Counted from the stretch's first letter, positions 4,459 through 34,158 are shown. The stretch is 35,409 nucleotides of DNA from Reclinomonas americana ATCC 50394 (GCA_048213135.1 PS015067.1:102334-137742); one strand, 5' to 3'. Made by a program: numbers and translations. The notes: generated from the sequence alone by a model not told the origin.

Positions 4459-6090
4459 CTATCCACCGCCCCTGCCAGGCAACAAGTTCGCCACCGACTG
4501 CAACGGCTGGCGCAGCCACTTGCCGAGCTCCACCGACACTGTGGTGACGAATTTCTGCATGTCGCGCTGCTCGCCGAGATAGCTCTCCACCAGATGCCGC
4601 ATCGTCATCGGGTAGATCCAGTGCGGCACTCCGTCGCCGGCGCGATCCACCATCAGCAGACCCAGGTCGTGCAAGCGAAAGAGGGTCTCGTTGAGCTGAT
4701 GACCACGCACATCGTCGGCTTGATTGCCGCGCTTCAGCAGCACCTCGGCAAACACGTCGCGAGCCTCGGGAAACGACAGTGGCGTAAAGCGCTTCTCCCA
4801 CGGTACCTCGGTGACACGCTCCACCGATAGCACCTTGGCGTCGGGCTCCACCATGAGGCTCTTCAGCAACTCCTCGTTCTTCTCGCGCATCGTCTCCAGC
4901 AGTTTCTGATAGAAGGCCGCCACCAAGTCGTCGCTCATGGCCAGCTGCGTGCTGTCGGTGCGATCCATGCTGTCCTCTCGCACACCGCCGTGAGCGGTGT
5001 AGAATGCCAGGTCGTGGAGGCCGCGCAGCACGCGGCGTGGAGTCGCTCCGTACGTGAACAGCACCAGTCGCGCCTTGTTCTCGTCGTCGAGCTGGAGCAT
5101 TTGTTGCACTAGCTTCAGGTCGTTCATCAAGCCGTTTGGCACCCGAAAGGTGGGAAAGCGACTGGAGGTGAGAGTCGGGCAGTCTTGCACCAGCGGGTAC
5201 TCGTTGCTCAGGTTGGAGTCGCGCACGGCCTGCCGGTTGATGAGCAGCGGGAGCGACGGAGACGAACTGCAGAGAACCACGGCAAATCGACCACTGGGAA
5301 ACCCATCGGCCAGGGCCGCCATCTCGCGAAGCAATCCGCGCGCCAGCTGCGCCTCCTCTAGTGTCGACTGCAACGCCTTGACAGTGTACAGCTGGTCCAC
5401 GTCGTCGACGAGGAAGAGAATGTGCCGATTGGTGGCGGCCAGCACCGAGTCGGCCACACGGAGGGCACTCCAGTTGTCGCCCTCGCGCTCATCCGCATTG
5501 TTGCTGCTGCTGCTGTTGCCGTTGCCGTTGCCGCTATTACCATTAATGGAGGAGGGTCGACTTGGCACGATAAAGCCGTGCCGCTCCAGTGCCTCGCAGG
5601 CGAGTTCGCCGAGCGGACGCACGCCGGCACTGAAACCGCGCCCGTCAATCTCACCAAGCATGCTGCTGACGCTGACGTACACTGGCACCACCGTCGGCGC
5701 CATCAGCGGACACACCTCGGCGAACACGCGCAGCACAGTCGACTTGCCGACGCCGTCAGCCCCGACAATTGCCACGCCATTCGCACCCCGTGTGTGCGCC
5801 AGCCGGTCTTCTGCCAGCAGTACCGCCATGCTGGCCAGCTTGCCGAGCATCACGCGATGCGTGGGCGTGTCGTACACTCGAGTGGAGACCGTTTGTAGCA
5901 GGTGCTCGTGGCCGAGAGCATTGAGTGCGTGCAGCAGCTCCAGCGGGTCCGGCGGCCTCTCCAGCGTGTACTTGAGGTTGACATGATTCCGCTGAAGGCA
6001 CGCGATCCGCTGCTGTGTCAGCGACGGCGACGACGACGGCACATGTGGGAGCGTGGAGGCGTGAACGGCTACGCATGAAAGACCGCCCAT
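4459..6090 (-). CDS. Intronless P-loop NTPase (AAA+/STAND-like), about 543 aa; start codon uncertain (open frame extends to 6234)
   Basis: Single uninterrupted ORF with Walker A AIVGADGVGKS (5763-5740), Walker B ILFLVDD (about 5421-5401), a sensor-like strand AVVLCSSS and a GATPR turn. The probable start is MGGLSC at 6090. Confidence 0.8.
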   Translation of the reverse strand: MGGLSCVAVHASTLPHVPSSSPSLTQQRIACLQRNHVNLKYTLERPPDPLELLHALNALGHEHLLQTVSTRVYDTPTHRVMLGKLASMAVLLAEDRLAHTRGANGVAIVGADGVGKSTVLRVFAEVCPLMAPTVVPVYVSVSSMLGEIDGRGFSAGVRPLGELACEALERHGFIVPSRPSSINGNSGNGNGNSSSSNNADEREGDNWSALRVADSVLAATNRHILFLVDDVDQLYTVKALQSTLEEAQLARGLLREMAALADGFPSGRFAVVLCSSSPSLPLLINRQAVRDSNLSNEYPLVQDCPTLTSSRFPTFRVPNGLMNDLKLVQQMLQLDDENKARLVLFTYGATPRRVLRGLHDLAFYTAHGGVREDSMDRTDSTQLAMSDDLVAAFYQKLLETMREKNEELLKSLMVEPDAKVLSVERVTEVPWEKRFTPLSFPEARDVFAEVLLKRGNQADDVRGHQLNETLFRLHDLGLLMVDRAGDGVPHWIYPMTMRHLVESYLGEQRDMQKFVTTVSVELGKWLRQPLQSVANLLPGRGGG

Positions 6091-6357
6091 TAGCGACACC
6101 AGGGCGCTGTCGCGGGGGGAGGAAACAGTGAAGTGAGGAGAGTGACGAAGAGCAGCAACTGGCGACCACAGCATAGAGTACCATCCACCGAGAATCCACA
6201 TTGCGAGCACAGTGTCAGGCGGGTAGGTGGGCAAGCAAGCAGGCAGGCGAAGGTGAACACTCAGTCACAGGAAGCGACGGAGATGAAGGAAAGACAAGAG
6301 AATCCAGTTTTTCATGGACAACATGAATGTGCCGGAGAAACAATCTACTTACTTCAC

Positions 6358-9300
6358 TCACGTGTCAAAGTACACCACACAAACACCGTCGGGATGCGTC
6401 TCCAGCAACCGCAAGAGCGCAACACGATTCTTCGAGGTGAGTCGGAAGAGTGTTCTTACCAGCGCCGGCTGACAGCACGGGTCTTCGCCAAAACCAAAGT
6501 CGGTCGCGTACTCGCCAAACAATCGGTGCAACAGCAGCTGCGCGAGCAGTGCGGTGAGGCTTAGACTGTCGTACATCGCGCGCAGTTCCAGATCATTGAC
6601 AAACCTCGCGCCGACCAATGTCCACAATAACTCCTTTTTCGCCGAATTTCTCCGCACACCGCTGCAACAAGTAATCGACTTTCTCTACCTGCGCCTCCGC
6701 GTGAGCAAATCCATCAAGTGGTGGACCCAAGCGCAAACACAAACACGCACTCTCATGGGCTTCAGGAACAGCTTGCCCTCGAGTCCAGACAACACAAAGT
6801 GCACTCGAACATCAGGCGCCTGCAGCACCAGACCCTGCACGCACGACACGGACAATGGTGATGAGAATGCGCTTCGCACACACATCAGTACATCACTATG
6901 AAACACACCATTCGTGGATCGCTCTTGGAGCGGAACGGTGGCAGGAGCTGATGCAAGCACGGTTTGTTGCCTGCAGGGCAGGGGGTGAGACGTGAGGGGG
7001 TAAAGCCACTGCACAAAGGAGGGGCGACACAGACCTCGCAGAATGCCGTCCTTGATGTCGTGTAGGGAGAAGCGCAAGCCACCAATGTCGTAGCACACGG
7101 CGTGCAAGAATCGCGGATGTACACTTGACGATTCGACGCCGAGTGCAATCAGCCCGTGAATGTACAGCAGGTTGTGGGCATTGACAAAGAACACTAGTCG
7201 TTCGCGCTCGTTCAGAGCAAACACATTCGACTGCAACGAGACAAGTCAAGTCAACACTCGCCGGAGAGCACAAGCGTGATTAACACAAGACACGTTACCC
7301 GCTGCAACTCGCCCGTCTCGGCGACAAACTCGGTGTACCCTTGACTCTCGATCACACTCTGCGACAAGGTGCAATGAGGAGCATGCTCTTCTTTTGCGAT
7401 TGCTTGCCGCCCACCGCACCTGATAATTCAAGCCCTTGCCAGTCATGTGTTGAGTGCACGTGTTGAGCATTTTCGCCGCCAGTGAGCGAATCACAGTGAC
7501 CGCAGCGCGACTCGGCTTGTCCCACACATCCGACAGGTTGAGCACATGCGGTTCCTCACCAGCCTTGCGAGCGCGCAATTGTCAGCGAAGCACCATAGAA
7601 ACGCAAATATTGGTTCACACACACGCACACACGCACCAAAAACTTGTACAGCGTAAAGTCGCCGTCAAACGTGGAGCCGCCGTCCAGCCGCGAAAACACA
7701 TTGCAGTTCGACATGTGCTGCAGCAGCACAATGGCATCGGCCGGCTCCGACACGCGGAACTCGTCGCACTCGAGCACCCACTTGATTGCGTCGAGGCCGG
7801 TGAAGCATCCGCGATGCAGCTCCTCGTGCATCAGCTTGGACAGAATGGAACGTGAGCTCTTGCTGGCGTGCCTCCTGGTGCGGTACACAATGTGCGGGCG
7901 ACGTGGAATACCACCCTCCTCTGGCGACGCCATCATCTTTTCCACAATGCGCCGCAGCACTTCGTCCAACTGATGACATTTGCGTGCGTGAGACAGACAC
8001 ACGCAAGGGCGGGCGGTGATAGACGGCGGCAGACATGTGCATACCAGCTCGTCGGTCAGCGCAAAGTCCTGCACGTAGCGCAGGAACGGAAGGAAGTAGT
8101 TCCACGGCGGATGAATCATGGTCTGCTCCTGTCGCGACATTTCCTCTGCCTCCTCGGCCAGCTTGCGTCGCCGCACGGCCGAGCGCACAGTGGCACCAAT
8201 CGATGACAGGTCCGTGACCGCACCTGTGAAGCAGCGGCAACTGGTGAGACACAGGATGCCAGCAAGCATGCACCACGATTTCGTTTCGCAACTCGGCTGC
8301 TTCGACGGTGAGCGTACACCAAAGCTGATGAGTGGACCGTCACCCTCCGGGGTAACCGTGACTGTGCGACGAGCGGCATCCAGCAGAGCGGACGGGGCTG
8401 CTGCGCCAGCTTCCGCGCGCCCTGCCGTCGACGGTCGCACATCTTGACTCGCATCACTTGCCGCACCGCCACTGCCACCTGCTCCACGCATGAGACACAG
8501 GCATCAACGCTCTGAGGCCGCACACTGTCTCGACAAACCCTTGCGTGTCGGAGCTGGGGCGGCCGCTGATTGCTCGAGGATCTCGTCGAGCACATGCGGT
8601 CGCCGCACGTCGGGGACTGCCTCCTCGATGCGCTCACTGCCTTCCTCGTCCTCTTCGTCGCTGTCGAGCACGGCCGTGGCGTGCGCCTGGAAAACAGCAG
8701 TGGCATGAGCTTCGGCGAGGCGAAGCACATGCAGGGGGGCGACTCACATCAGCAGCAGAGGATTGTACATCACGGGTGCCGACCGTGGACTCGTCTTCGT
8801 CGTCATCGCGCTCCTCGCCTGCACGGCGCACGCAAGTGTCAAACACCGTCACTGCGTAACACATTCGTCCCTGTAGGAAATACCGTACACAGCCAGCAGT
8901 CCGTCCTCGTAGAGCGTGGAGCTCGAGGCGCTGCTGGACAGGCCCACTCGGTAGTCGACAGCGGCCTCACGACGCAGGGTATCGAGTGTGTTCTGGAACT
9001 CACTGTACACCAGGTGGGATCAATAGGTAGAGAGGGGGGGTGACAATGAGAGGGTGGTGGGACGCACACTCCGACGCTGAGCGGCACTGTGCCCATGACA
9101 TATCGTCCGGCCTGGTCCGCACGGGCGTACGCGTCAAAGCGCTGTGTTGACACACGCACAACAGAAGGAGGAAAGAATGAGAGTCGTGGTCAAGGGCTGC
9201 AAGCACTCTCTCTCTCTCTCTCACACACACACGCGCACCTTGAGGTCGTCGATATCAGGGGACATCTCTGGCGCCAGGAACCGATCGTACATTTTCTGGT

Positions 9301-12300
9301 AGTACTCGCCCACCGCGTTCACGCCGCTGAACTGACTGGCTCCTTGCTGCGCGATGCACACAGCACAGGTCAGTGAGCAGGCTCCATCCAATCACCGCCA
9401 TACATACGACACGAACCACAGTGTGACCCAGCGACATGGCACCGGCAAGCACCGAGATGCCTCGACTCTGGCCACCAGTCTGCACACCAGAGTGAGAACA
9501 TCTCTATCAGCAAACTTTGTGAACGGGGACGCAACTGCCAGCATCGCAGTAGTGCGCGTGCCCGACAAAAAGTACTCGTACTCGGAGGACCGATTCACCG
9601 TCTCCACCATTTCGTGACGACTGGCGTGTGCGTACGTGCGATACTTTTCCATGCTGTCGTCTTCCGGTTCGTCGATAAACGACAACGAATCCTGCGAGGC
9701 ACGAACAACGGTGAGCATCAGTGCGCGCCACAGAATGCTGGCGTGGCGTGACGAAACATCATGAGCACTTGTCATCCTGTTCACAATGGCGAATCGCTGG
9801 CGAATGTCCTCGTCAATGACAGCAGGCATGATGGAGACGGCCGCCATGCGACCCTTGGTGCTGTGGTGCGATGCCAGTGAGGAGAGTACAACGGCAGCTG
9901 CAGTGCACCGGGGGGAAACGAAACGAAGATCGTGCATGATGCGCACTTGCCGCTCGACTGTCACGCGCCACCGACAGCCGCTTCTCGTAGGGCACCAGCA
10001 AGCGCCTGAGTGTGTACGTGAGTGAGTGGGTAAAGGAAAGTAGGCAGCTGTGTAGCTGAGGAACACAACTTGTAAAAGTTGGTCAGCTTGTGCGTCTGGT
10101 GCGCCTGCTCAAAGTACGTGTCGTCCTTGGGCCTGTCAAACAGCTGCTCTTCGGTGCATGTCGCCACGCCGGCGAGACCCTCCTCCTGATTGATGCGCGA
10201 AAAGAGCGATGCGTGCGGGTCCTCGAATTCCTCATTCGGCCGCACCCACCAGTCGTCACGGAGTCTGCGACACGAAATGAGCGCACATCCTTGCTGTGCC
10301 AACCCCGCTTCCGCTCCGACGCAACACTTGCATACTCTCCGATCCTTCGCCAAACTCGGTGGCAGTGTTGTGCAGATAGAAATCCGTGGGCAACTCCCAC
10401 AAGTGCGGCTTGCCAATCTCCGGCACGTAGTGTCCGAGGAACAAGTTGATGGCCTCTTGCTTCTCCGGATCCAAGAAGTTGTTGCTGTCGCACACGGCTG
10501 TCAGCTCAACGGATTATGCAAGGCGTGCGCAGCAACACACTCACCTGTAGAATCGTCGAATGTTGGACAGGATATCCCAGCTGACGCCACGGTGATGCAC
10601 ACCGGCACTGACAGTGCGTGAGCCGCCGTACTGCAGAGCAAAGTTGTCACCGGCCTCATCGTACAGATCCATCAGCGCCTGAATAATGTCCTCGTGGCCA
10701 ACGAACGAGGCGCGCGAGAAGGCGCCCAGTGCATGCAGCTACGCACAAGCGTCAAAGTGTAAGACGAAATGACTCGCACCCACAACCATAACACGCATGA
10801 ATGGTGGTGCGATCAAACCTGGTGCGCGAGCGCAGACTTGCCAAACAAAAACTGCGCAATGTTGGTGCGGTCGAGACAGTCCAGGCAGTTCGTGCGCAGC
10901 ACGCCACGCTGCAACGTGTATCCCTCGAATGGCTGCGAGGAGAAATCGTAGAGTCCGCTCTCCTCCAGCCAGTCCGCGCGCTCGACAATCACTTTGGAGC
11001 GGAAAATGTTGGTCTCCGAAATGGCTCCCTCACAAATGACGGCCATCGTAGTCAGTGCGCGACCGAGGTTGCGTTTGGCGGCGCCGCGGAAGTCCCACGA
11101 AATGTGCTGCAAATGGAGCAAGTGAGTGAGTCACGAGGAGCGGAGAAGTGGGTGAGAGAGTCGTGGTACAAGTCACCTGAATCTTCTTCTCGGCCGGCAG
11201 GAACTGGTTGAGATAATTGACCAGCTCGTCAAACTCGCGCACCAGCGGCATCTCTCGCGGCTTCTTCTCCTGTGGTTTTAGCAGATCGAGCAGAATCACT
11301 GGCATGCCGTAGCGTCGGAACAGATCCTGGAAGTGGAGACGCGCTGCCGTGCATTGCGGATCGTAGCGGCCCACTGTCGAAATGTAGAGTATGTGAGTGT
11401 CATCATCATCATCACCACCACCACATTGACTGCACGTTGTGTGCACGAAACTGATAATGGTGGGCTTGGGCGCCACAATGGCCTTCGATTGTGTATCGTG
11501 CGACCAGTAGACCGGCACCGAGCCACGCACTTGCACCACCGACGTGAACACGCCCTCGCGCTCGAATTCGTTCACCGACGACGAGTCGTACACAATCTGC
11601 TCGGTCTCCACCTCGTTGGCCACGTGGCCCTGATCGTTGATGCCACGCTTGAGGTACCGAGTACCGGCAAAGTAGCGCGAGCGGCGACCAATGAGCACAA
11701 TCGAGATGGANNNNNNNNNNNNNNNNNNNNNNNNNNNNNNNNNNNNNNNNNNNNNNNNNNNNNNNNNNNNNNNNAGTGTGGCAGTTGCTGTTATTGATCT
11801 TGATGTGCATCATGCAGGGTTCATTCGCTTCCTGCAAGGCTACTACATGATCCTGATCACGTCACGACGGTTGGTGGGCGCCATTGGGCCACACAAGATC
11901 TACGAGATCACCGACACGGAGCTGCTGCCGCTCTTCCACCCCGTGAAGCTGAAGAAGGGCTTGTTTTCGAAGGATCTCGAGCAGCGGTGAGAAGAAGCAG
12001 ACATGGGGAGAGAAGAAGAAAAACTCACGTTCTTGTATCCTCCTCGTCTCCGCAGCTACAAGGAGCTGTTCACGGGCTTTTCGCTGAACAAGAACTTCTA
12101 CTTTAGCTACACCTACGACCTCACACAGACGCTGCAGTACAACATGCAAATGTCGTCGTCGCCAACTGACGGCTCCGGTGGCAGGTATGTGAGCGCATCT
12201 CGCTTTTCATCTCTGGTGTGTTGCCTCACACCCTCCACCCTAGTTTTGCATCGCGCTTCCGTGGCCGTCCCGAGAGCAAGTTTGTGTGGAACACGTACCT

Positions 12301-13321
12301 GCTGCAGCCGCTGATTGCGTGTGTGGGCGAGTGCGAGTGGGTGCTTCGTGTGGTGCACGGCAATGTCGGCCACCGCAGTTGCGTCACCACTCACACTCCC
12401 CTCCGCTCTCCGCACTCCACGTTCTCACACACCCGAACAAGCGCAGCACTGAATATGTTTGGGCGCNNNNNNNNNNNNNNNNNNNNCTCTCTCTCATTTC
12501 TCAGCTCCTGCTCAGCTCCTGGTCAGCTGTGCATTGCTCTTCGTCACCCACTGTGCTTTTATCTCACGCTTTCTCACTCTCTCACACACAGGATCATGAA
12601 GCAGCCTAGCAGTAACTGAACAATCCCTGCATGATGGACATCAATAGCAGCAACTGCCACACACACACACACACTCTCTCTCTCTCTCCTTCTCAGCCTC
12701 CTGCTCAGCTGTGCATTGTCTACCTGCTTGTCTTTTCTCCCTTTCCCCTCTCCCTCTCCTCCCTTCCCCCCCTTCCTCTCCCCCAGCGCACCAAGGATTC
12801 CATAGGCCTTGGGCCCCCTCTGCAAGCCGCCGACATTGCGGCAGCCATGGTTGACCATCTCCATGAGATCACGCATCTCCTTGCGAGAGTACTCGCCCGG
12901 ATCCGCGACAATCTCCAGATCCGTGAGGTTGCCCGCACCCTCTCCCATCGTCGCATCTCCACTACCACTGCCACCAGCAGCCGCAGCTGCAGCACCAACA
13001 GCAGCCGCAGACGACGAACCGGAATCGCCCGCAGATTGCGGAAGATCTGTCTCCACAATGAGCACACATCGTCGCGCCACACTGTCATGCGCACACACGC
13101 ATAGACAAAGACCTGACTTGGCCACTACTCGCTCAATCTTGAGCACGCGAAACGTGCGTCGTGCATGTTCCGTTCCGACCAAGTAGTACCTCTGCACACA
13201 ACAGACATGATGATGAGCACACAATCACACACTTGCAACACACACACACACACACACTTACTTGTGGTGTCTCGTACAAGACAAACTTTTGCAGGCAAGA
13301 GGTGACTGGAGGCAAACGCAT
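6358..13321 (-). CDS. FIG4: FIG4/SAC3-type polyphosphoinositide phosphatase with C-terminal DEP and DUF547 domains (about 30 exons; internal block 11775-12466 inverted)
   Basis: FIG4-like N-terminus [26 protein letters not shown] motifs [34 protein letters not shown], catalytic [36 protein letters not shown] phase-consistent exon chain continues to DEP ([11 protein letters not shown]...[10 protein letters not shown]) and DUF547 ([44 protein letters not shown]). Stop at 6360-6358. Confidence 0.85.
11775..12466 (+). other. FIG4: Four FIG4 exons in the opposite orientation, bounded by N gaps (probably a mis-oriented contig)
   Basis: Encodes [15 protein letters not shown]...[16 protein letters not shown]...KFVWNTYLL...VVHGNV...LNMFGR. 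This is the SAC segment missing between the minus-strand exons ending AYGILG (about 12793) and starting [11 protein letters not shown] (11710). Confidence 0.9.
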
Positions 13322-13403: not shown

Positions 13404-16400
13404 ATGAGTGCGCCTCACTTGCGGCGCCCGTCCATGCCCGGACTGAGTGCCGAAGACCTGCAGCAAGTGGCCACACAAGCGCGACCTCTGTTGCGCACAC
13501 AGAAAAAAGTCTCTCTGTCTCTCTCGGTTTGTGTGCCGACTCTCACACTCACGCACACACAGAAAGTTGAGTCGGAATGTGGAGGCTGCGCGAGTTGAGG
13601 CACTGGATGGCCGCGTGCATCCGCTCATCTCACTGGCGCGCTACTCCAATGTGGAGATACTGAAGGAGGTGGCGCTGGCCCTCGCCGATGTCACCAAGCA
13701 CGGTGCGTGTGTCACGAGCACACACACACACGCACACACACACACACACACNNNNNNNNNNNNNNNNNNNNNNNNNNNNNNNNNNNNNNNNNNNNNNNNN
13801 NNNNNNNNNNNNNNNNNNNNNNNNNNNNNNNNNNNNNNNNNNNNNNNNNNNNNNNNNNNNNNNNNNNNNNNNNNNNNNNNNNNNNNNNNNNNNNNNNNNN
13901 NNNNNNNNNNNNNNNNNNNNNNNNNNNNNNNNNNNNNNNNNNNNNNNNNNNNNNNNNNNNNNNNNNNNNNNNNNNNNNNNNNNNNNNNNNNNNNNNNNNN
14001 NNNNNNNNNNNNNNNNNNNNNNNNNNNNNNNNNNNNNNNNNNNNNNNNNNNNNNNNNNNNNNNNNNNNNNNNNNNNNNNNNNNNNNNNNNNNNNNNNNNN
14101 NNNNNNNNNNNNNNNNNNNNNNNNNNNNNNNNNNNNNNNNNNNNNNNNNNNNNNNNNNNNNNNNNNNNNNNNNNNNNNNNNNNNNNNNNNNNNNNNNNNN
14201 NNNNNNNNNNNNNNNNNNNNNNNNNNNNNNNNNNNNNNNNNNNNNNNNNNNNNNNNNNNNNNNNNNNNNNNNNNNNNNNNNNNNNNNNNNNNNNNNNNNN
14301 NNNNNNNNNNNNNNNNNNNNNNNNNNNNNNNNNNNNNNNNNNNNNNNNNNNNNNNNNNNNNNNNNNNNNNNNNNNNNNNNNNNNNNNNNNNNNNNNNNNN
14401 NNNNNNNNNNNNNNNNNNNNNNNNNNNNNNNNNNNNNNNNNNNNNNNNNNNNNNNNNNNNNNNNNNNNNNNNNNNNNNNNNNNNNNNNNNNNNNNNNNNN
14501 NNNNNNNNNNNNNNNNNNNNNNNNNNNNNNNNNNNNNNNNNNNNNNNNNNNNNNNNNNNNNNNNNNNNNNNNNNNNNNNNNNNNNNNNNNNNNNNNNNNN
14601 NNNNNNNNNNNNNNNNNNNCCGTCTCTCACTCTGTGATGCAGGCGGCGCATGCCTCAACTTGGTGGAGTTCGGGGGTGTGGAACCGATCGCGGCACTGTC
14701 GTTGCACGAGAATGTGGAGGTGAGACGCACGGCGATTTCGGCGCTCATCAACATGTCGAGTCAGGTCGGTCACTTTCGCACCGTGGGCGTGTCGGCTGCC
14801 AAGTCGCTGGTCAACATGATTCGTGAGGGCGATGACACGGCGATGCGCAAGACCGGTGTGCAGGCGTTGGCGCGAGTGGCGGAGAACGGTACTTCGTCGA
14901 TCCGCTCCTGTTTCTCCTCCTCCCTCTACCGATCGCTTTCTCACGTGCATGCATGCAGTCGACTGTCACGCCACGATTCTGAAAGTCGGTGGCCACGAGG
15001 CACTGCTGGCGGTGTGCGATGAGGAGACCGATGTGGAGATGCTGTTGTCGGCGGCGCACACCTTGTCGTACTTGTGCTGCACCGATGCGTGTGCCGATGC
15101 GCTCATGGCCTCGTCGGTGTCGGCGACTGCGGCGGCCGCGGGCGATATGCGCAGCGCGGAGCAGCATACGTGCGAGACGTTGACGTCGTTGCTCAGCAAC
15201 GCCATGCACAGTGATGAGTCGCATGCGGTACTCGTGGATCCGTCGCACTCTCTGAATGCCACCTCCTCGGCCCTCTCGCCGTCGTCGTCGTCGTCAGCGG
15301 CACCGCACGGAGTGCAGACGGCGAGCACGCCAAAGTTGCCGCAAAAGATACAACGCGCACTGCGGGATGCTGCGTCGCCAGAAATGGCCGCGCTCACTGG
15401 TATGCGTGAGGAGCCGCGTCGTCACACTGGCACGCCGAGTCGGTGCGTTGCCGCCAGTCGTGCCGCTCACTCTCACAATGGAGCGATCGCTTCTCTGACC
15501 ATATTCACATCATGCAGGCGCGAAGATCACATGGCCGAGGTGTGGCGCAGTTCAGAGGGTGCCGCTGCTGCCGTGGCGTCCATGCGCTCGCACACGGCTG
15601 CGTCGTCGCCACCGCCGTTGCCGACGTCGCCCACGTCGCCCGATTCGTTCATTCGTCGCGCCCCACCCACGGCCAGTGGTGTGTCTGTGGCCGGCACGGT
15701 GGGAGGGACGCTGGCTGGTCACGGTAGTACCGCCACCGCCAGCGTCGTAGGCAACGGTGCAGGTGATGACGAGAGTCTCGACAGTCGTGGTCTGAATCGC
15801 GCCGAGGCGTTTAGGGAACGCGAGCGCGCTGGTTTCCGTGTGCCGAGTGACTGGAGCGACGTGGAGGTCTCCTTCTTATTCGCTCTTTGTGCGTGTACAT
15901 GAGTTGCCGCTCACCGTGCTGTGCACTCGCAGACGTGCATGACGGATGCGCCCGAGTACCGCATCACGAGTGTGGTCGGCGAGACGGCCAAGTGCATTGC
16001 GAACTTGTCGGTGTCGGGTTTCAGTCGCACGCTGCTGGCCAAGGGTCTGTTCACGGCGCTGTGTGCGGCGGTGGAGTTTGCCAACGGCACGCCCACCATG
16101 CGTGAGCTGGCACGAGCGTTGTATGAAGTGACCCGGGAAGGTGTGACACATCGCGCACGAAGCGCATATTGCGTTGCATTCACCAGCTGACCCGTGTTGC
16201 AGATGTGTCGGGAGACCTGCCGTCGTCCACCCTCTCGCGACTGATGGGCGTCGACGACAGCAAGACCAAGGTGTTTGCCATGCGCGTCATTCTCAATTTC
16301 GTGGCCACTTGTTGCGTCGTTTGTTGCTCCTCCTCCGTTGCTTCTCATTTCCTCACTGTCATCCGGTAACAGCGGCGGGTCGACTGTATACGGCTCAATC

Positions 16401-19400: not shown

Positions 19401-22400
19401 CGCGCTGTGGTGCGTTGGTTCTCCTGGCGTGTGATATTTATGACATGCTGAGCTCACATGAATGGCCGCTCGCAGTTCCTGGCCAAGCTCAAGGGCGATG
19501 GTCGACTAACGGTGCTGAAGGAGTTTTCGCGTTCCGAGGAGGCGCTGCTCGAGCACGAGGTTTGTGCCGATTCGACTGCATTCATGTGAAACACCGAGTT
19601 GTAACTCTGTGCGTGCAGGCCTGCGTCTTGTCGTCGCTGAAGCATCCGTTTGTGGTCAACATTGAGGCCGTCTTCAAGGATCGGCCAAAGGGCGGTCGCG
19701 ACTGGCAGAAAGCCTACATTCAGTTCCCGTACTACGAGGTGACGAAGTGGCACACATACTCGCTCTCTTTGTCACCCCAGCTCCGTCACTCATGCGCAAA
19801 TGCAGGGCGGAACGCTGCGCGAGTGGATGAGTTCCGGCGAACGTACTCCGTGGGAGCTGGAGTGTGTGTTCCGTCAGATTGTGCAGGGAGTCGGATACAT
19901 TCACAGTCAGCGCATCGTGCATCGGTTTGTGGAAGAGAGAGAGGGGAACGCGAGTGTGACGTGATCGGATGCTGACGGCAGTGGGTGGGTGCGCAGTGAT
20001 CTGAAGCCAGAAAATGTGTTCATGACACGATTGGGTACGCCGAAGATTGCCGACTTTGGATTCGCGCGCACCGAGAGTATCCTGCGCGACTCGCGCACCA
20101 GTTGCGTTCTCCCTGCTGTGCTGTCTTCACATCTCTATTGCGCCCCTGAAGACTCACTGTCGGCGGCAGGTGAATTCATTGGAACTCGTCCATTTGCGGC
20201 GCCAGAGGTCCTGCTGCCCATGTATGCGCGCTCGCTGTCGGGCTCCTCGAAGAAGGGCAAGCACATCCGCTCGTCGGCCGGGCGATCTCGAAGCGATGCC
20301 AGCAGCTCGCTGTCACCTTCGGTTCGTGCACTCTGCCTGTCTCCATTGCATTTCCCGTGCTCTGTCCTCATGCATCTCACAGAGCAAGTCGAATCCGTCG
20401 TCGTCTTCGTCATCGTCGTCGCCCATGTCGTCGTCGCGTGCCTCGTACAAGTCGGACATGTGGAGTCTCGGTGTGATGATTTTGGAGGCTCACTTCGGGC
20501 CGCTGGAGGATTCGTTGCGTCGATGCTGTGCTTCCGTTCATGGGACAGGGACTGACCCTTGCCTCGCCCGAAACAGACCACGTCCCAAGTCCGACGCACA
20601 CAGCGTCATTTATGCAACGCCACTGGCCGCCTCCAGTGTGTTTACCAACTACTTTACTCCGACCACGCCACCGCGGACCAAGGCACGTGTGCGGATCTCG
20701 CAGTTTCCTTGCTTTTTATCGTGGCAGTGCACTCACGCACCACAACACAGCAGAAGATCTCCCGTCGCTCCAGCTCGGGATCCCTTGGCAACCCGCCAGG
20801 CGCCGCCACTGGTCTGTTTGGCAAGATTGAGATCCCCGACAAGGATGCGCTGCGAGAGAACCTTCGCCGCGACATGACGGATGAGATGTTTGCGCAACTG
20901 AGGTGAGTCGGGCGTGTCGCACAAGAGTGCTGGTGTCACGCCTCGCTGATGTTTTCATACATCGTAGATCACTGCTTCGCCGCCTGCTGGCCATCGATCC
21001 GCGCCACCGCCCAAGTGCCATTGAGTTGCTGGCTCATCCGTACTTTTCCACCCCGCATGCGCACATGCTGCACCGCGATCGCTTCTTGATTCGCAGGTGC
21101 GGGCCCGTGCTTCAGTGTTCACGTGTGTCTGTCTGTCTGTGTGCACTCACGTGTCGGCACACAGCGACGACAAGATTCGACAGATCCGCGAGGTGTGCGA
21201 CGAAAAGTCCCGCGACATCCCGCCCATCGAGCTCACCGTGTCGCGGGCCCACATTGTCAATGACGTGGTGGAGGTGCGAACGCACACACGCGTGCGAGTC
21301 GGTTGTGCACTAATGTGTAATATCTAACAACCCTACTATTTTTCCACGCGCGGCAGGTCTTTAGCGCCATGACACTCGACGAAGACATGCTGGCACCGCT
21401 GCACACGCAGCTGCTGGAGGACAGTGGCGAGAGCGGCGAGGACATGGGTGCCGTGTCGGACGACATGTTTACCGAATTCTTCACGCGTGTTCTCGATCCG
21501 AAGCTGGGGTACGTCGGCGTGTGGAATGCGTTTATTATCCAAGCTTGGTGTGCTCATCTTGCGTTGTGTTGCAGCTTGTTCGAGGCGTCGTGCGGCATCA
21601 ACGGTGCCGACCCAGACAGCGAGTTGTATTTGCCGGTGCCAAACACCGATGCTGAGTTTGCGTACGAGAGTGTTGGTGCGGCGCTGCTCAAGTGCCTCAT
21701 TGACAACCGCCCGGTGCACGCGCGATTTGCGCCGTCGCTCTTCAAGTACTTGCTCGACATTGACCCGTCGTACACCGATCTAGAGGTTGGCTGCCGCGCG
21801 CATTGATATGTGTGTGTGTGCGCTCGACAGTAGCTGACCATTGCTCGCGTCGCAGTTGTACGATCCGCAGTACGCACACAACCTGCGCGAGTACGTGCTG
21901 CACAAGACGATCACGGAGCCGACGTATTTGCACTTTATCAGTGACACGGGTGAAGAGAAGGAGCTGAGCGAGGAGAACAAGTACGAGTACGTGAGGAAAC
22001 AGGTGCGGTTGCAGTTGCTTCTTGTGGAAGTCAAAGAAGTACGACCTCGCTCACTCTCCTCTGGTCCACAGATTTACGAAAAGTTGATTGGCTGCCGGAA
22101 ACAGCATCTGGAGGCCATCAAGCGCGGCTTCACACGCGTCAACATGTCGTTGTGGCTGAAGGGTCTCAACTGCACCGAGCTCATGTTGTTGCTGTGCGGC
22201 GAGGACTACTTGGACTCGGACATGGTGCTGCAGAATGTGGTCTTCTCGTCGTCCTTCCCCGAAGGGTCACCGACCCCGGACTATGCGCGGAGATTCCTGC
22301 GTGATTGCGATTCAACAGGTGTGCGGTTTGATTGGTGGGGCGCTGTTGCTCTTTGTCATAGTCGCACGACTCAACAGAGAGCGTCACTCACAGCTCTGCG

Positions 22401-22852
22401 ACGATTCCTCCGTCTGTGCACCTCGTTGATTGCCATTCCGTACGGTGGCTTCCAACAGAAGATCACCGTGTTCCCTTCGAGTTGCGTCCCTCGTGTTTCT
22501 CCAGGAAGCAGCCACTCGGCCTCACACGCGCTCTCCTCTCGTCCGAACAGGCCGTCTGTATGCGCAGACGTGCTTCCACCACTTGGAGGTGCCGGAGCTG
22601 CCGTCGTACGAGGACTTTGCGGCGGCAATGCTGGCCGCCATTGTGGCTGTCGACAGTGCAGGTATCATTGTCATGAGACTGTTTATTGGTGTCTATTCTC
22701 ATGTTCTTCTCATCACCTTCACCCCTTTCTCTCTCCCTGCACCAGGCATGGAGGAGGACGTGGAGTCGAACGACGGCGATTTTGAGTTGCAAGACGACCA
22801 GCAAATGGGACAGTTTGACCGATCGCCCTCTGGCCAGTCACTCGACAGTTGA
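13404..22852 (+). CDS. Armadillo-repeat + coiled-coil + Ser/Thr protein kinase + HECT E3 ubiquitin ligase fusion (more than 35 exons; one gap at 13752-14619)
   Basis: ARM-like repeats (GGVEPIAALS..VEVRRTAISALINMS; GTVNALVNVA..IRVQRASAAALCCI; EVDRQAVQALCNIS). Kinase motifs TVLKE, LKHPFVV, HRDLKPEN, KIADFG, GTRPFAAPE, SDMWSLGV, DPRHRPSA. HECT motifs GEDMGAV, FAPSLFKYLL, DLELYDP, EENKYEYV, LEAIKRGF, and AQTCFHHLEVP (Cys at 22571-22573). All junctions traced are GT-AG and in phase. Stop at 22850-22852. Confidence 0.8.
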
Positions 22853-27088: not shown

Positions 27089-28827
27089 TTACTGCCAGAG
27101 GAGCACGCGGTGATCCCACGAGGCCGACGCTAGAGTGGAGGGCAGCAGAGGGTGGTACTGTGCATCGGTGCACGCCTCGGTGTGTGCCTGCGACACGAGT
27201 GAGTGCTCTGGATCGAGCGGTGTGCGACATGGAAACTCACTCTCCGGATCTGCTGGTGGACAGCGCAGCCAGGCTGCGGGTCCCACTCGTAAAAGTGCAA
27301 CGAGCCATCCGACGAACCGGTGCAAATGGTGGCGCCGTTCTGACTGAACGAGAACTGGATGTTGAAACCGGCGACACTGTGGCCCTCAAAGCGCTGACAA
27401 CGCGAGTTCAGTGACTTTTGAGAACCGGGGAGAGCTGGAGAACGAGAGACCACTCACCCGATACTTGTTGAGCTTGTGTGGCGGCTGCGCACCGATAATG
27501 GCAATGTAGTCTCCGTGTGACTGCAAGCAGAACTTGCGCCCGGCAGGATGCAACCGCACGCACGTACAGGTGAAGCCCTCCAAGTAAAACTGGTCGTGCA
27601 TGATGACGCCGGAGCCAAAGTCCCACGACACCACACCGCGATTCACCACGGTGGTGCGTGGCAAGTCTGCGCACGAGATCACAGTGCTGCCATCGGCGGT
27701 GAAATCGGCGCTGTGGAGCGTGCCAAAGTGGCCCTGTGTTGGTGGGGGAACAGTTTTCGGTGACGCAAACTCGTTCATCAATCACGTGAGAAGACAGCGA
27801 ACCGCGAATGGCCGCACGGGCTTTGTGGCGCTGGCCCGAGTGTCCCACAATAGCATGCCGTCTCGCATGTAACCGGCGAGGAAGAGGTGCGGATGCGTGT
27901 CGGAGCAGCGAAGTGCAGTGGCGGCCAGTGTCGACGACGCAGCCGCCGAGCGCGGGGCAAAGGACTGCAAATACACACAGGTGAGGGGCGAATCCAACCA
28001 GAAACGCGCAGGGCCTCATCTCGCACCTCCACCAGCACGCCCGTCTCCATGTCGGTCAACGACACCGCCGACTGCCCATGCAACACGGCCAGCAAACGCC
28101 GCGCCTCATCGCCCACCATCCACTCCACCGTTCGCACACCCACTGCACCCAGTTCCACCGTGACCAGCGGCCTAACTCGTCGCGTTTGCACACCCTCGTC
28201 AAACACATCCCACAATCGCACAGTGCCATCGTTGCCGGCCGAGGCCAACAGCCGCCCCGACTCGGGCGACCACAGCACGCGATTGACACCAGCCTTGTGT
28301 CCCACCAGCTCATGCACAGGCTCGTCGACATTCAGCGGAACACAGCTGGCCAGTCGACGCGCAAGAGATCGCGACACTTGTGCATGGTCGCCTTCTTGCT
28401 CCTCCTCGTCTGGCAGTGCGCTCTCCCACACGCGTTTCACCGAGTCCCATGCAGTTGCTTCTCCAGTGACAGCTCCAGTCGAAGACGAAGAGGAAGAAGA
28501 AGAAGAGGTCGTCGTCTTCTCTGCTTTGGACACGTATCGTCGATGACAAGCGCGTTTCTTGTCTTGCTGCTGCGACGACTGTTCCTCTGTGCGTACTGTG
28601 TGAGCAAGAGGAAAGAGAAAAAGGGTGGGAGCATGCGCTGGTGACCTCGTGCGCGTTTGCCCAGTGTCAGCAGTGCCTCGCGCTGTCCATGCACAGTGAG
28701 TGCGTGAGTGATGCCCAGAGAGTGAGAGAGAGAGAGAGAGAAGGCAAACCTCGTCGTCTCTTCCGTCACTGCTGCTGCTGCTGTCACTGTTACTGTCACT
28801 GCTGCTGTCATAGTCGAGGCCCAGCAT
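27089..28827 (-). CDS. WDR25: WD repeat protein 25-like (CDC40/PRP17-related WD40)
   Basis: Acidic N-terminus LDYDSSSD, RRYVSK, GHKAGVNRVLWSP..LLASAGNDGTVRLWD, FTCTCVRLHP..FCLQSHGDYI, KLNKYRRFEGHSVAGF, TGSSDGSLHFY, and C-terminal HPLLPSTLASASWD..W. Confidence 0.8.
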
Positions 28828-28899
28828 GTGCGTCGGTGCATGGTGGTGTTATGCTTGCAAGAGAGGGACACGACGAGTTGTCCTCCTCGTAACAACAGA

Positions 28900-33041: not shown

Positions 33042-34158
33042 ATGACTGCGAAGGTCTGCTTGCTGCGCTGTTGCAGTAGCTACTGTCTCACCACGCATGC
33101 GATCATCGTAGGTCTTGGTTGGTCACACGGGTGCGGTCATGTCTGTTGTCGTCACTCCCGACGGTCTTCACGCAGTCAGCGGGAGTGCGGATAAGACAGT
33201 GCGGGTGTGGTCATTGGCGAGTGGGCAGGAGGTGCGACAGCTGGAGGGACACCTTGGGGAGGTGACGTGCGTTGCTGTCACCCCCAATGGCCAGCACGTT
33301 TTGAGTGGGAGTAAGGACGTCACGATCCGGGTTTGGTCGTTGGAGAGTGGCGAGGAGGTACGACGGTTGATGGGGAACATTGGCGGCGTGCTATGCGTGG
33401 CTGTAACACCCGACGGGCTGTGCTTGGTGAGTGGGATTGAGGATGAGGAAGAATGTGAGATGATGTGGGTTCGGTCTCTGGCGACTGGCGCCGAGTTGCG
33501 CCATTTCGACGGACACCCATGTGGAATGCTCGCTGTTGTGGCTGTTCCCGACAGTCTTTGCGTTTTGAGTGGTGGTTGGGACGGCACGGTGCGTGTGTGG
33601 TCGCTGGCGAGTGGCGAGGAGATGCGACGGTTGGAGGGCCACGGGCGCGAGGTGCGGTCTGTCGTCGTCACTGCCGACGGGCAGCACGTTGTGAGCGGAA
33701 GCGCAGATGGGACCGTTCGAGTGTGGTCACTGGCGAGTGGTGAGGAAACGAAACGGCTGGTGGGTCACACCCGGCCGGTGTGGACTGTCGCCGCGACCTC
33801 TGACGCTCAGCACATCGTGAGCGGGGGTTGTGACGAGACGGTGCGAGTGTGGTCGCGGGTGAGTGGCAAAGAAGAGCACCGATTGGAGGGGCACACTTCA
33901 TTCGTGTACTCTGTCGCTGTCACTCCTGATGATCAGCACGTAGTGAGTGGGAGTGGTGACAAGACCATTCGGGTTTGGTCCACGCCGTGCGGTCTCGCTC
34001 GGCGTGAACTGAACAGTGCTCGTCTGGCGGCTACTAGTGTGAACGAGATGCTGCTTGAAGCCGACCAGTACCACGAGTGGATTCTGGTCGATGTGGTGCT
34101 GCGGTGCTTCATCGTGGGTGAGGCTGAGGCTATCGAATACCGCGCGCCTGGATGGTAA
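33042..34158 (+). CDS. Seven-repeat WD40 beta-propeller protein with highly similar repeats
   Basis: MTAK|intron|VLVGHTG..., then seven ~42-aa repeats of consensus GH..V.SV.VTPDG..VVSGS.D.TVRVWSLASGEE.RRLE and a short helical tail. Only one intron. Stop at 34156-34158. Confidence 0.88.

What the first reader, a model, noticed from the sequence alone, without database searches (positions are those of the whole stretch)
6358..10100. FIG4 phosphatase fused to a DEP + DUF547 module
Seen: after the SAC domain and the FIG4-typical PHLWEL/DDWW/TNFYK region, I traced phase-consistent GT-AG junctions with no stop through an acidic low-complexity linker into a DEP domain (about 7920-7637) and DUF547 (about 7570-6358). 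Established: FIG4 is the PI(3,5)P2 5-phosphatase of the Fab1/PIKfyve-Vac14 complex and normally lacks such domains, while DEP+DUF547 is typically seen with glutaredoxin domains. Inference: the fusion links the uncharacterised DUF547 to endolysosomal phosphoinositide signalling. I cannot confirm novelty without a search.
Basis: partly seen in the sequence, partly recalled or inferred. Interest (0 to 1): 0.75.

Follow-up and report, generated by a model that had tools for sequence, protein, structure and literature searches.

The report
FIG4 lipid phosphatase with DEP-DUF547 tail
A protist gene most likely encodes the endolysosomal lipid phosphatase FIG4 joined to a DEP plus DUF547 tail, an arrangement that its closest relatives share but that I found described in no paper.

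Summary
The gene runs from about 13321 to 6358, well beyond the flagged span.

A stop-free GT-AG path joins FIG4 to DEP through 12 introns of 56-97 nt. Such a path also exists in 28 of 30 shuffles, so it proves little. The 504-residue linker matches no relative. Its support is codon usage: 0.31 bits per codon in frame against -0.45 and -0.63 out of frame.

The decisive evidence is comparative. Of the 120 nearest FIG4 relatives listed, 12 carry DEP and/or DUF547 behind the SAC domain. These include Naegleria gruberi, Diplonema papillatum, a Euglena gracilis transcript and three Trinity transcripts. The window's FIG4 part falls inside their clade (support 99). So the fusion is very probably real here (about 0.8), but it is not unique.

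My searches found no paper describing it. DEP-DUF547 is a movable tail also found behind glutaredoxin, DENN, RasGAP, RGS and kinase domains. A confident DUF547 model has no neighbour in the PDB. No transcript from this organism was available, and a contig inside the gene is inverted between assembly gaps.

The parts
13262..13321 (-). First coding exon of the FIG4-like gene, starting at ATG 13321 ([20 protein letters not shown])
   Evidence: Matches positions 7-27 of the fused-family profile only weakly (E 0.04). The donor at 13261 (GTAAGT) starts a 70-nt intron. Translation.
12787..13191 (-). FIG4 N-terminal exons ([21 protein letters not shown] ... [13 protein letters not shown] ... AYGILG). 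One intron inside is not resolved.
   Evidence: Canonical FIG4 profile positions 32-102, E 2.3e-13. Fused-family profile positions 26-98.
11775..12466 (+). Contig between two N gaps that carries the next SAC exons (about 11817-11986, 12056-12184, 12244-12376) in the opposite orientation. Most likely a scaffolding error.
   Evidence: N runs at 11711-11774 and 12467-12486. Syja_N profile positions 4-144 match on the plus strand. The exons are colinear with the relatives only if the piece is turned round. An 80-nt inverted repeat, 11776-11855 against 12589-12668, is 76% complementary.
10356..11713 (-). SAC catalytic half and the conserved FIG4 region in five exons: 11713-11452, 11373-11177, 11106-10819 (holds the CLDCLDRT active-site motif), 10738-10545 and 10484-10356 (holds [10 protein letters not shown] and [13 protein letters not shown]).
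   Evidence: Syja_N E 7.7e-43. Profile matches at E 1e-16 to 1e-47. Introns of 60-80 nt are fixed by homology. CX5R[ST] motif found.
8045..10264 (-). Lineage-specific linker of about 504 residues in 11 proposed exons. It includes Y-x-x-Y motifs, the acidic stretch (8818-8748 and 8686-8539) and a Gly/Ala/Ser-rich stretch (8481-8320). Exon borders are provisional.
   Evidence: Stop-free model with introns of 56-97 nt. In-frame codon usage is 0.31 bits per codon over 498 codons, against -0.45 and -0.63 out of frame. The weakest exon, 8481-8320, scores -0.04. No significant similarity to any of 120 relatives.
8479..8538 (-). Critical proposed intron (donor GTTTGT at 8538; acceptor giving exon start 8481 or 8478). 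It removes the only stop in that frame, TGA 8506-8504, between two long open stretches (8743-8504 and 8503-7556).
   Evidence: The splice-site scores lie at the 81st and 82nd percentile of all GT and AG sites and within the range of the 14 confident introns. No transcript evidence.
7637..7969 (-). DEP-domain exon
   Evidence: Pfam DEP E 7.5e-6, 26.2 bits, below the cut-off of 32.7. Fused-family profile positions 822-943, E 2e-8. The relatives carry DEP at the same place; 6 of the 12 reach Pfam's cut-off.
6358..7563 (-). DUF547-containing C-terminal region in seven exons: 7563-7420, 7358-7299, 7230-7035, 6970-6909, 6834-6751, 6688-6605 and 6537-6358 (stop TGA 6360-6358).
   Evidence: Pfam DUF547 E 1e-14. 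Fused-family profile positions 1023-1128, E 1.7e-19. Introns of 61-74 nt. The family's conserved core residues are kept. The last two exon joins were chosen among several options.

Best explanation
The window holds one intron-rich nuclear gene of a microbial eukaryote, on the minus strand from about 13321 to 6358. It would encode roughly 1,500 residues.

**What it is.** The protein is a member of a distinct clade of FIG4 (Sac3-type) phosphoinositide phosphatases. In that clade the complete FIG4 body is followed on the same polypeptide by a DEP domain and a DUF547 domain.

**Shown.**
- The FIG4 body keeps the CX5R(T) active site.
- The window's FIG4 part sits in the clade of fused proteins.
- The DUF547 part keeps that family's conserved core residues.

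**Inferred.**
- The head removes the 5-phosphate of PI(3,5)P2, as FIG4 does in the Fab1/PIKfyve-Vac14-Fig4 system.
- The C-terminal DEP-DUF547 part is a movable cassette that sets where or when the head acts. DEP would give membrane or receptor-tail association. DUF547 would bind a ligand or partner that is still unknown.
- The same cassette sits behind glutaredoxin, DENN (a Rab exchange factor fold), RasGAP, RGS and protein-kinase heads. I therefore read it as a shared targeting or regulatory tail, not as part of the phosphatase chemistry.

The exact exon borders of the 504-residue linker, and its continuity in this genome, are also inferred.
For: - **Domains and order.**
- **Active site.** CLDCLDRT is present.
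- **Relatives with the same architecture.** 12 of the 120 nearest FIG4 relatives carry DEP and/or DUF547. My own Pfam scan places SAC at the N-terminus, then DEP, then DUF547 in 9 of the 12. Two lack a DEP match and one lacks DUF547.
- **Independence from gene prediction.** Four of the 12 are transcript-derived open reading frames (an EG_transcript and three Trinity contigs, names as given). The fusion is therefore not a gene-prediction artefact.
- **Colinearity.** The relatives map colinearly onto the window.
- **Trees.** The window's FIG4 part sits in a clade of 15 rows: the window, the 12 fused proteins, and two short proteins of 444 and 776 aa. Support is 99 in FastTree on 121 rows. It is also 99 (SH-aLRT) in IQ-TREE LG+C20 on 34 rows.
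- **Gene model.** A stop-free model needs only introns of 56-97 nt, like the 14 homology-fixed introns of 59-80 nt. Linker exons show in-frame codon bias.
- **DUF547 tree.** The ten fused DUF547 domains form one group (support 92). The window's DUF547 falls in the smallest clade that holds them.
- **Cassette behaviour.** Of 56 DUF547 proteins scanned, 26 have glutaredoxin, 12 have DEP only, 4 RasGAP, 3 a protein kinase, and 1 each DENN/GRAM, RGS, TPR39 and GH15.
- **Literature.** Class IV plant glutaredoxins are GRX+DEP+DUF547 and remain uncharacterised (PMC13621322, section 19, passage read). Human PIKfyve has a DEP domain that Fab1p lacks (PMC3017826, section 6, passage read).
Against: - No transcript or protein from this organism was available.
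- The linker between 10356 and 8045 has no detectable homology to any relative.
- A stop-free GT-AG path is found in 28 of 30 shuffles, so it is not evidence by itself.
- The exon 8481-8320 has neutral codon usage, -0.04 bits per codon.
- ATG codons at 8864, 8491, 8269 and 8140 could start a separate DEP-DUF547 gene.
- The next gene downstream starts about 160 nt after this gene's stop, so very short intergenic spacers do occur here.
- The window's DUF547 joins the fused group with support of only 26, on a long branch.
- None of the 56 best DUF547 matches that I scanned carries a SAC domain. The 94 shorter ones were not scanned.
- DEP is below Pfam's cut-off.
- The SAC N-lobe lies inverted between gaps. 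If that inversion is real, the gene is broken.
- The function of the tail is pure inference. The DUF547 model has no structural neighbour in the PDB.
Confidence: 0.7

Rival explanations
1. Two neighbouring genes. A FIG4 gene ends at TGA 8853-8851 or at TGA 8506-8504. A separate DEP-DUF547 gene starts at ATG 8864, 8491, 8269 or 8140. This would be a fission of the ancestral fusion, or a lineage that never fused the two.
For: - Candidate stops and starts exist.
- Intergenic spacers in this window can be about 160 nt.
- The join region 8560-8260 has the weakest coding signal.
- No homology bridges the two halves.
- The window is sister to all other clade members, so a split form at the base cannot be excluded by the tree.
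Against: - All 12 clade members long enough to tell carry DEP and/or DUF547 behind the SAC domain.
- The two halves are adjacent, on the same strand and colinear.
- The acidic exons have in-frame coding bias, and their only possible own start is an ATG lying inside FIG4 coding sequence at 8864.
- ATG 8491 lies only 12 nt after the stop at 8504.
- Starting at 8140 would leave the strongly coding stretch 8223-8141 untranslated.
- All introns needed for one gene are of the usual size.
Confidence: 0.15
2. The gene is a pseudogene, or is broken in this genome. On this reading the 692-bp piece 11775-12466 is really inverted, and the weak spots of the model are decay rather than assembly problems.
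For: - SAC exons lie on the opposite strand between the flanking exons.
- An 80-nt inverted repeat, 76% complementary, sits at the borders.
- About 10-15 residues of the SAC domain are missing at the gaps.
Against: - The inverted piece is bounded exactly by runs of N on both sides, as expected for a contig placed in the wrong orientation.
- Its exons are intact, in frame and well conserved, at E 5.6e-17 and 1.3e-15.
- The active site and all conserved blocks are kept.
- No in-frame stops occur inside any homology-supported exon.
Confidence: 0.07
3. The tail is not a passive targeting device. DUF547 would be an enzyme or a lipid or nucleotide sensor that acts on the same pathway. Alternatively, the DEP-DUF547 tail folds back on the SAC domain as an autoinhibitor.
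For: - DUF547 has invariant or nearly invariant polar residues (N, N, Y, R, N, D, R, H) across bacteria and eukaryotes, and the window keeps them.
- Stand-alone bacterial proteins consist of this domain alone.
- The domain folds confidently into a compact globule: pLDDT 93, pTM 0.91.
- A PTEN homologue of Entamoeba histolytica is drawn with a DUF547 (PMC9122207, Fig 1 legend read). The text of that paper writes DUF457 for the same region, so this is unverified.
Against: - No structural neighbour hints at a chemistry: 0 of 158 PDB matches at E <= 0.001, best TM-score 0.25.
- No lead came from the protein atlas.
- The cysteines of the bacterial C-G-A-x-S-C-P motif are not kept in the window.
- The heads fused to the cassette are chemically unrelated, which fits a shared address or switch better than a shared reaction.
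Confidence: 0.2

Closest known systems
Canonical FIG4 / Sac3 (yeast Fig4p, human FIG4), the PI(3,5)P2 5-phosphatase of the Fab1/PIKfyve-Vac14-Fig4 complex
   Same: - SAC domain with the CX5R(T) active site.
- The N-terminal LYET...YLVG...LKIDR block.
- The KQxAINLFLG and LWELxTDYYLH blocks.
- Aligns to a profile of 54 canonical FIG4 proteins from position 14 to 597 of 861.
- The named best hits are 'polyphosphoinositide phosphatase' or 'phosphatidylinositol-3,5-bisphosphate 5-phosphatase'.
   Different: - Roughly 1,500 residues by my model, against 800-1000.
- The C-terminal third of canonical FIG4 is not detectable here, apart from Y-x-x-Y-like motifs. In yeast, loss of the last 113 residues goes with impaired complex association (PMC12594618, Fig 2 legend and section 2.1 passages read).
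- A DEP and a DUF547 domain follow.
- It forms a separate clade from fungal, animal, plant and Acytostelium FIG4.
FIG4-DEP-DUF547 proteins in public databases: Naegleria gruberi 'phosphoinositide polyphosphatase domain protein' (P0112, 1567 aa), Diplonema papillatum 'Polyphosphoinositide phosphatase' (P0042, 1704 aa), a Euglena gracilis transcript (P0010, 1349 aa) and nine unnamed or transcriptome entries
   Same: - Same domain order.
- Same clade for the FIG4 part (support 99).
- The same variant DUF547 motifs: DIK/R-x-GILRGN and RVHFxL without the cysteine pair.
- Linker length within their range: 197-566 residues between the LWEL block and DEP in the relatives, about 450 here.
   Different: - At most 52% identical over the FIG4 part.
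- The window branches outside all of them.
- The linker sequence is unrelated.
- In the window, continuity is inferred and not read from a transcript.
Class IV glutaredoxins (GRX + DEP + DUF547; Arabidopsis GRXlike1 and GRXlike2) and other DEP-DUF547 proteins
   Same: The same C-terminal DEP then DUF547 cassette, with about 140-150 residues between the two domains.
   Different: - The head is a SAC phosphatase, not a glutaredoxin. No glutaredoxin match was found in any piece scanned.
- The function of the plant proteins is itself unknown (PMC13621322, section 19).
Metazoan PIKfyve (FYVE-DEP-CCT-kinase)
   Same: A DEP domain attached to an enzyme of PI(3,5)P2 metabolism (PMC3017826, section 6: the human enzyme has an extra DEP domain compared with Fab1p and ppk-3).
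   Different: There the DEP is on the kinase; here it is on the opposing phosphatase. PIKfyve has no DUF547. This is an analogy, not a shown homology of the DEP domains.

Membership tests
FIG4 / Sac3-type SAC-domain phosphatase | SacI homology domain (Pfam PF02383) | tested here: met
   E 7.7e-43 for 11030-11704(-). Further pieces at E 2.3e-7, 2.8e-6 and 1.1e-5 lie on the inverted contig.
FIG4 / Sac3-type SAC-domain phosphatase | Catalytic CX5R(T/S) motif | tested here: met
   CLDCLDRT in exon 11106-10819.
FIG4 / Sac3-type SAC-domain phosphatase | Groups with FIG4 rather than other SAC proteins (Sac1, synaptojanin, INPP5F) | tested here: inconclusive
   All named top hits are FIG4-type proteins. 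One plant entry is named 'SAC1' by its source. The canonical FIG4 profile aligns over positions 14-597. No Sac1 or synaptojanin outgroup was put in the trees.
FIG4 / Sac3-type SAC-domain phosphatase | FIG4 C-terminal region needed for association with the Vac14 scaffold | tested here: inconclusive
   No significant match beyond profile position 597. Only Y-x-x-Y-like motifs resemble the canonical and fused-family consensus.
FIG4 / Sac3-type SAC-domain phosphatase | PI(3,5)P2 5-phosphatase activity and presence in a Fab1-Vac14-Fig4 complex | not testable with these tools
   Needs enzyme assays and pull-downs. The rest of the genome, where Fab1 and Vac14 genes would lie, is not in the window.
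FIG4-DEP-DUF547 fusion clade | FIG4 part branches inside the clade of fused proteins | tested here: met
   The clade of 15 rows has support 99 in FastTree (121 rows) and SH-aLRT 99 in IQ-TREE (34 rows).
FIG4-DEP-DUF547 fusion clade | SAC, DEP and DUF547 on one polypeptide | tested here: inconclusive
   A stop-free spliced model exists with coding bias. There is no transcript, and paths also arise in shuffles.
FIG4-DEP-DUF547 fusion clade | DUF547 part related to the DUF547 of the fused proteins | tested here: inconclusive
   It falls in the smallest clade holding all ten fused DUF547 domains, but with support of only 26. It shares their motif variants.
DEP domain (PF00610) | Match to the Pfam model at its gathering score | tested here: not met
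   26.2 bits against a cut-off of 32.7, E 7.5e-6. The relatives have DEP at the homologous place, and 6 of the 12 reach the cut-off. The fused-family profile matches at E 2e-8. It is therefore a divergent DEP by position and family, not by the Pfam cut-off.
DUF547 (PF04784) | Match to the Pfam model at its gathering score, and the conserved core residues | tested here: met
   55.1 bits against 27 for one exon alone. The core residues F, N, N, Y, G, G, L, R, N, D, R, H, F and L are kept; a Y is replaced by H at one position.
Class IV glutaredoxin (GRX-DEP-DUF547) | N-terminal glutaredoxin domain | tested here: not met
   No glutaredoxin match in any of the 16 pieces scanned. A SAC domain occupies the head position.

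The most novel reading that the evidence does not exclude
In this clade of protists the DEP-DUF547 tail replaces or supplements Vac14-dependent recruitment of FIG4. DUF547, a fold with no solved relative, would be a new membrane-lipid or small-GTPase-binding (or catalytic) module. It would serve as a common address tag for regulators of endomembrane signalling: FIG4, perhaps PTEN, DENN, RasGAP, RGS, kinases and glutaredoxins. Studying the FIG4 fusion would then reveal the function of the whole DUF547 family, including the uncharacterised class IV glutaredoxins of plants.
Probability: 0.2. Interest if true: 0.7.

Novelty: new variant of a known kind. Interest (0 to 1): 0.45.

Why it matters
FIG4 is a conserved regulator of endolysosomal PI(3,5)P2, and its loss causes human neurological disease. 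Its recruitment and regulation are thought to depend on Vac14. A whole clade of FIG4 proteins with a built-in DEP-DUF547 tail points to another way of placing or switching this phosphatase.

It also gives DUF547 a concrete biochemical neighbourhood in which to test it. DUF547 is widespread from bacteria to plants, folds confidently, and has neither a solved structure nor a known function.

The practical value lies less in this window than in the family. Naegleria, Euglena and Diplonema carry the same architecture and can be grown. For the window itself, the result corrects an assembly or annotation problem: one gene of about 7 kb with an inverted contig inside it.

Tried and rejected
- **Word-index search with the DEP exon** among longer proteins: nothing found, which is weak evidence.
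- **PDB sequence searches** with the two open frames after the SAC domain and with the DUF547 frame: only chance-level hits, E 0.24-0.47.
- **The listing of cluster members** for the unnamed relatives: the service was switched off and the call was not repeated. The organisms of 9 of the 12 fused proteins therefore stay unknown to me.
- **Last word-index search, on a WD40 gene (33112-34158),** to place the organism: only generic WD40 proteins came back, with no taxonomic clue. The source lineage of the window stays undetermined.
- **Automatic exon-chain search:** it gives stop-free paths, but its choices change with the rules and it skipped the TNFYK stretch. I do not trust its exon borders.
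- **A 34-nt and a 39-nt intron** were considered and dropped as too short compared with the 59-80 nt of the confirmed introns.
- **'DUF547 is a dead enzyme in the fused proteins':** rejected. The glutamate and the cysteine pair that looked conserved in bacterial proteins are not conserved in other eukaryotic DUF547 proteins either, and the true core is kept.
- **Fold search of a confident DUF547 model against the PDB:** no neighbour.
- **Protein atlas:** no lead; best score 0.76, below the level of a lead.
- **Complex prediction** of the FIG4 body against the DEP-DUF547 tail of P0013: no verdict, score 0.00. I do not use it either way.
The same model was then built from coordinates only.
- **Paper searches that found nothing:** Fig4 + 'DEP domain' + 'Sac domain'; Fig4 + Vac14 + Naegleria; 'polyphosphoinositide phosphatase' + Diplonema; PIKfyve + 'DEP domain' + Fig4 + Vac14.

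Full report
**What is in the sequence**

The window is eukaryotic nuclear DNA. It is about 58% G+C and has seven runs of N. Pfam scans of stop-to-stop frames on the minus strand gave three domains:
- A SacI homology domain at 11030-11704, E 7.7e-43.
- A DEP domain in 7556-8503. The match lies at about 7831-7640, E 7.5e-6, 26.2 bits, below Pfam's cut-off of 32.7.
- DUF547 in 6685-7245. The match lies at 7215-7030, E 1e-14, 55.1 bits against a cut-off of 27.

The first 144 profile positions of the SAC domain lie on the plus strand at 11805-12460. That piece is bounded exactly by N runs at 11711-11774 and 12467-12486. Its first 80 nt are 76% complementary to 12589-12668. I read it as a contig placed in the wrong orientation in the scaffold. 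If it is turned round, the exons are colinear with every relative.

The gene starts near ATG 13321 and ends at TGA 6360-6358. The flagged span 6358-10100 is therefore only its C-terminal half.

**The FIG4 part**

A spliced FIG4 part was assembled from coordinates with homology-fixed introns of 59-80 nt. It has the N-terminal LYET...YLVG...LKIER block and the active-site motif CLDCLDRT (CX5R[T]). It also has the [10 protein letters not shown] and [13 protein letters not shown] blocks.

A profile of 54 canonical FIG4 proteins of 800-1000 aa matches the window from position 14 to position 597 of 861, ending at 10349. Beyond that point I found no significant similarity:
- tblastn with 15 relatives gave nothing.
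- The two profiles gave nothing.
- phmmer of my 504-residue linker model against all 120 relatives gave a best E of 1.2.

They resemble the consensus '...SYTKWF...' and '...LTSLEKLF...' of canonical FIG4. That is a resemblance by eye and not a test.

**The DEP-DUF547 part**

From the DEP exon (7969-7637) to the stop, the model has eight exons separated by introns of 73, 61, 68, 64, 74, 62 and 67 nt. It follows the consensus of the fused relatives block by block. The last two joins were chosen among several open options.

Aligned to a profile of 30 stand-alone DUF547 proteins, the window keeps the conserved core of the family: F..N..N, Y..GG, D-I-x-x-G-I-L-R-G-N, DxR-x-H-F-x-L. It shares with the fused relatives the lack of the C-G-A-x-S-C-P cysteine pair. 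Other eukaryotic DUF547 proteins lack that pair too.

**Is it one gene?**

By coordinates I built a stop-free model from 10484 to 7637 with 12 introns of 91, 64, 67, 56, 70, 97, 77, 65, 61, 57 (or 60), 96 and 75 nt.

The existence of such a path is not evidence. With loose rules, 28 of 30 dinucleotide shuffles of 10350-8050 also gave one. With introns of 50-100 nt, 14 of 30 did. With 45-120 nt, 5 of 30 did.

The coding content along the path does exceed chance:
- Path scores are 170.3, 134.8 and 138.0, against shuffle maxima of 91, 11 and 27.
- In-frame codon usage is 0.31 bits per codon over 498 linker codons, against -0.45 and -0.63 in the other frames. Introns score -0.11 in their best frame. 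Exons held out of training but supported by homology score 0.14-0.31.
- Splice-site scores of the linker introns lie within the range of the 14 confident introns, at the 44th to 99th percentile of all GT and AG sites.

The weak point is 8560-8260:
- One TGA (8506-8504) separates two long open stretches of the same frame. A proposed 57- or 60-nt intron (8538 to 8482 or 8479) removes it.
- The following Gly/Ala/Ser-rich exon has neutral codon usage, -0.04.
- ATGs at 8864, 8491, 8269 and 8140 could in principle start a separate gene.
- The next gene downstream (4459-6264, weak AAA_16/STAND matches) begins only about 160 nt after this gene's stop. Sequence alone therefore cannot exclude two genes.

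**Comparative evidence**

A search with the SAC exon among longer proteins listed 120 relatives. Twelve of them carry DEP and/or DUF547 according to the precomputed Pfam column. My own scan puts SAC at the N-terminus, DEP 200-570 residues after the LWEL block, and DUF547 near the C-terminus. Nine have all three domains, two lack a DEP match at E <= 0.001, and one lacks DUF547.

The named ones are:
- Naegleria gruberi (1567 aa).
- Diplonema papillatum (1704 aa).
- A Euglena gracilis transcript (1349 aa).

Three more are Trinity transcript ORFs. The architecture is thus seen in assembled mRNAs and not only in gene predictions.

In a FastTree of all 120 relatives plus the window, a clade with support 99 holds the window, the 12 fused proteins and two short entries. 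Those two, of 444 and 776 aa, are too short to reach a DEP domain. An IQ-TREE run (LG+C20+F+G4, 34 rows) gives the same 15-row clade with SH-aLRT 99. The window is sister to the rest.

In a tree of 138 DUF547 domains, the ten fused ones form one group (support 92). The window's domain falls in the smallest clade that contains them, but with support of only 26 and on a long branch.

Taken together, I put the probability that the window encodes one fused protein at about 0.8.

**What the tail is**

An exhaustive HMMER search with the DUF547 frame found 396 proteins at E <= 0.001. I scanned the 56 of the best 150 that are 400 aa or longer; the 94 shorter ones were not scanned. The result was:
- 26 with glutaredoxin, of which 20 also have DEP.
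- 12 with DEP only.
- 7 with DUF547 only.
- 4 with RasGAP.
- 3 with a protein kinase, two of them also with a receiver domain.
- 1 each with DENN/uDENN/GRAM, RGS, TPR39 plus DEP, and glycoside hydrolase 15.
- None with a SAC domain.

DEP-DUF547 therefore behaves as a movable C-terminal cassette behind unrelated signalling and trafficking heads.

A stand-alone DUF547 protein (P0132, with 30 aligned sequences) folds with pLDDT 93 and pTM 0.91. It has no neighbour among PDB structures: 0 of 158 matches at E <= 0.001, best TM-score 0.25. The protein atlas gave no lead.

**Literature**

'DUF547' occurs in 28 papers of the library. I saw the listing of 26. By title, none concerns FIG4 or SAC phosphatases. 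I read passages of two of them and of two further papers:
- PMC13621322 (section 19) describes class IV plant glutaredoxins as GRX+DEP+DUF547, uncharacterised because full-length protein could not be purified.
- PMC9122207 draws a DUF547 in Entamoeba PTEN in its Fig 1 legend. Its text calls the region of EhPTEN1 (aa 550-680) 'DUF457', so this second phosphoinositide-phosphatase fusion is unverified.
- PMC3017826 (section 6) notes that human PIKfyve has a DEP domain that Fab1p lacks.
- PMC12594618 (abstract and passages) gives the current view that Fig4 acts in the Fab1-Vac14-Fig4 complex. It also reports that a C-terminal truncation is among the variants with impaired association.

Four combined searches for a description of the fused architecture found nothing. 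Subscription journals and supplements were not searched.

**Mechanism, with its status**

Shown:
- An intact FIG4-type catalytic head.
- A DUF547 with the family core.
- Membership of the fused clade.

Inferred from the family (established knowledge of FIG4): the head dephosphorylates PI(3,5)P2 at the 5 position on endolysosomal membranes.

Inferred from architecture only: the DEP-DUF547 tail addresses or switches the head. DEP would act as a membrane or receptor-tail binding module, as in other DEP proteins (recalled knowledge). DUF547 would bind an unknown ligand or partner. Whether the tail replaces Vac14-dependent recruitment is open. The canonical C-terminal region is not detectable in the window. 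It is aligned over most of its length in some fused relatives: P0002 to profile position 854, P0006 to 851, P0112 to 850.

**Verdict**

The fusion reading is probably right. The architecture is not unique to this genome. It defines an undescribed clade-wide variant of FIG4 that is already present, unremarked, in public protein sets. I rate it a new variant of a known kind, of moderate interest.

Noticed in passing
window 11711-12486: A 692-bp contig (11775-12466) carrying three SAC-domain exons lies in the opposite orientation between two N runs. An 80-nt inverted repeat (11776-11855 against 12589-12668, 76% complementary) sits at its borders. This is probably a scaffolding error, and it would split any automatic gene model.
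   Followed up: partly
window 4459-6264 (-): A 601-residue open frame lies immediately downstream on the same strand, with weak AAA_16 (E 9.5e-5) and nSTAND1 (E 5.5e-4) matches. Its first ATG is only about 160 nt after the FIG4 gene's stop, so intergenic spacers here are very short.
   Followed up: no
window 8478-8484 (-): Two acceptor AGs 3 nt apart (exon start 8481 or 8478) both keep the frame. This is a tandem-acceptor arrangement that would add or drop one residue.
   Followed up: no
window 9142-9238 (-) and elsewhere: Proposed introns hold GT/GA and CA microsatellite runs. They appear as 'CVCVCV' or 'ERERER' in frame translations (for example 9232-9205, 13255-13225 and 7630-7615).
   Followed up: no
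window 19965-20555 (+), 21838-22785 (+), 27778-28848 (-), 30459-32258 (-), 33112-34158 (+), 34576-35340 (+): Other genes in the window: protein-kinase fragments, a HECT domain, WD40 proteins (one uninterrupted 348-residue frame with six WD40 repeats) and an MFS_5 transporter piece. A search with the WD40 frame gave only generic WD40 hits and no clue to the organism.
   Followed up: partly
relatives P0121-P0270 (no window coordinates): DUF547 is fused to DENN/GRAM (P0128), RasGAP (P0173, P0174, P0181, P0231), RGS (P0184), receiver-kinase (P0161, P0263), kinase-DEP (P0257), TPR39-DEP (P0204) and GH15 (P0127). Three of the RasGAP proteins (P0173, P0174, P0231) carry two DUF547 stretches.
   Followed up: partly
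model mc2771b553b58 (protein P0132): A stand-alone DUF547 protein folds with very high confidence (pLDDT 93), yet it has no structural neighbour in the PDB.
   Followed up: yes
PMC9122207, section 6 and Fig 1 legend: The paper's text names the extra domain of Entamoeba PTEN1 (aa 550-680) DUF457, while the figure legend names it DUF547. One of the two is a misprint.
   Followed up: no
window 13752-14619: An 868-nt run of N lies just upstream of the gene, flanked by CA repeats. The promoter side of the FIG4 gene is therefore only about 430 nt of known sequence.
   Followed up: no
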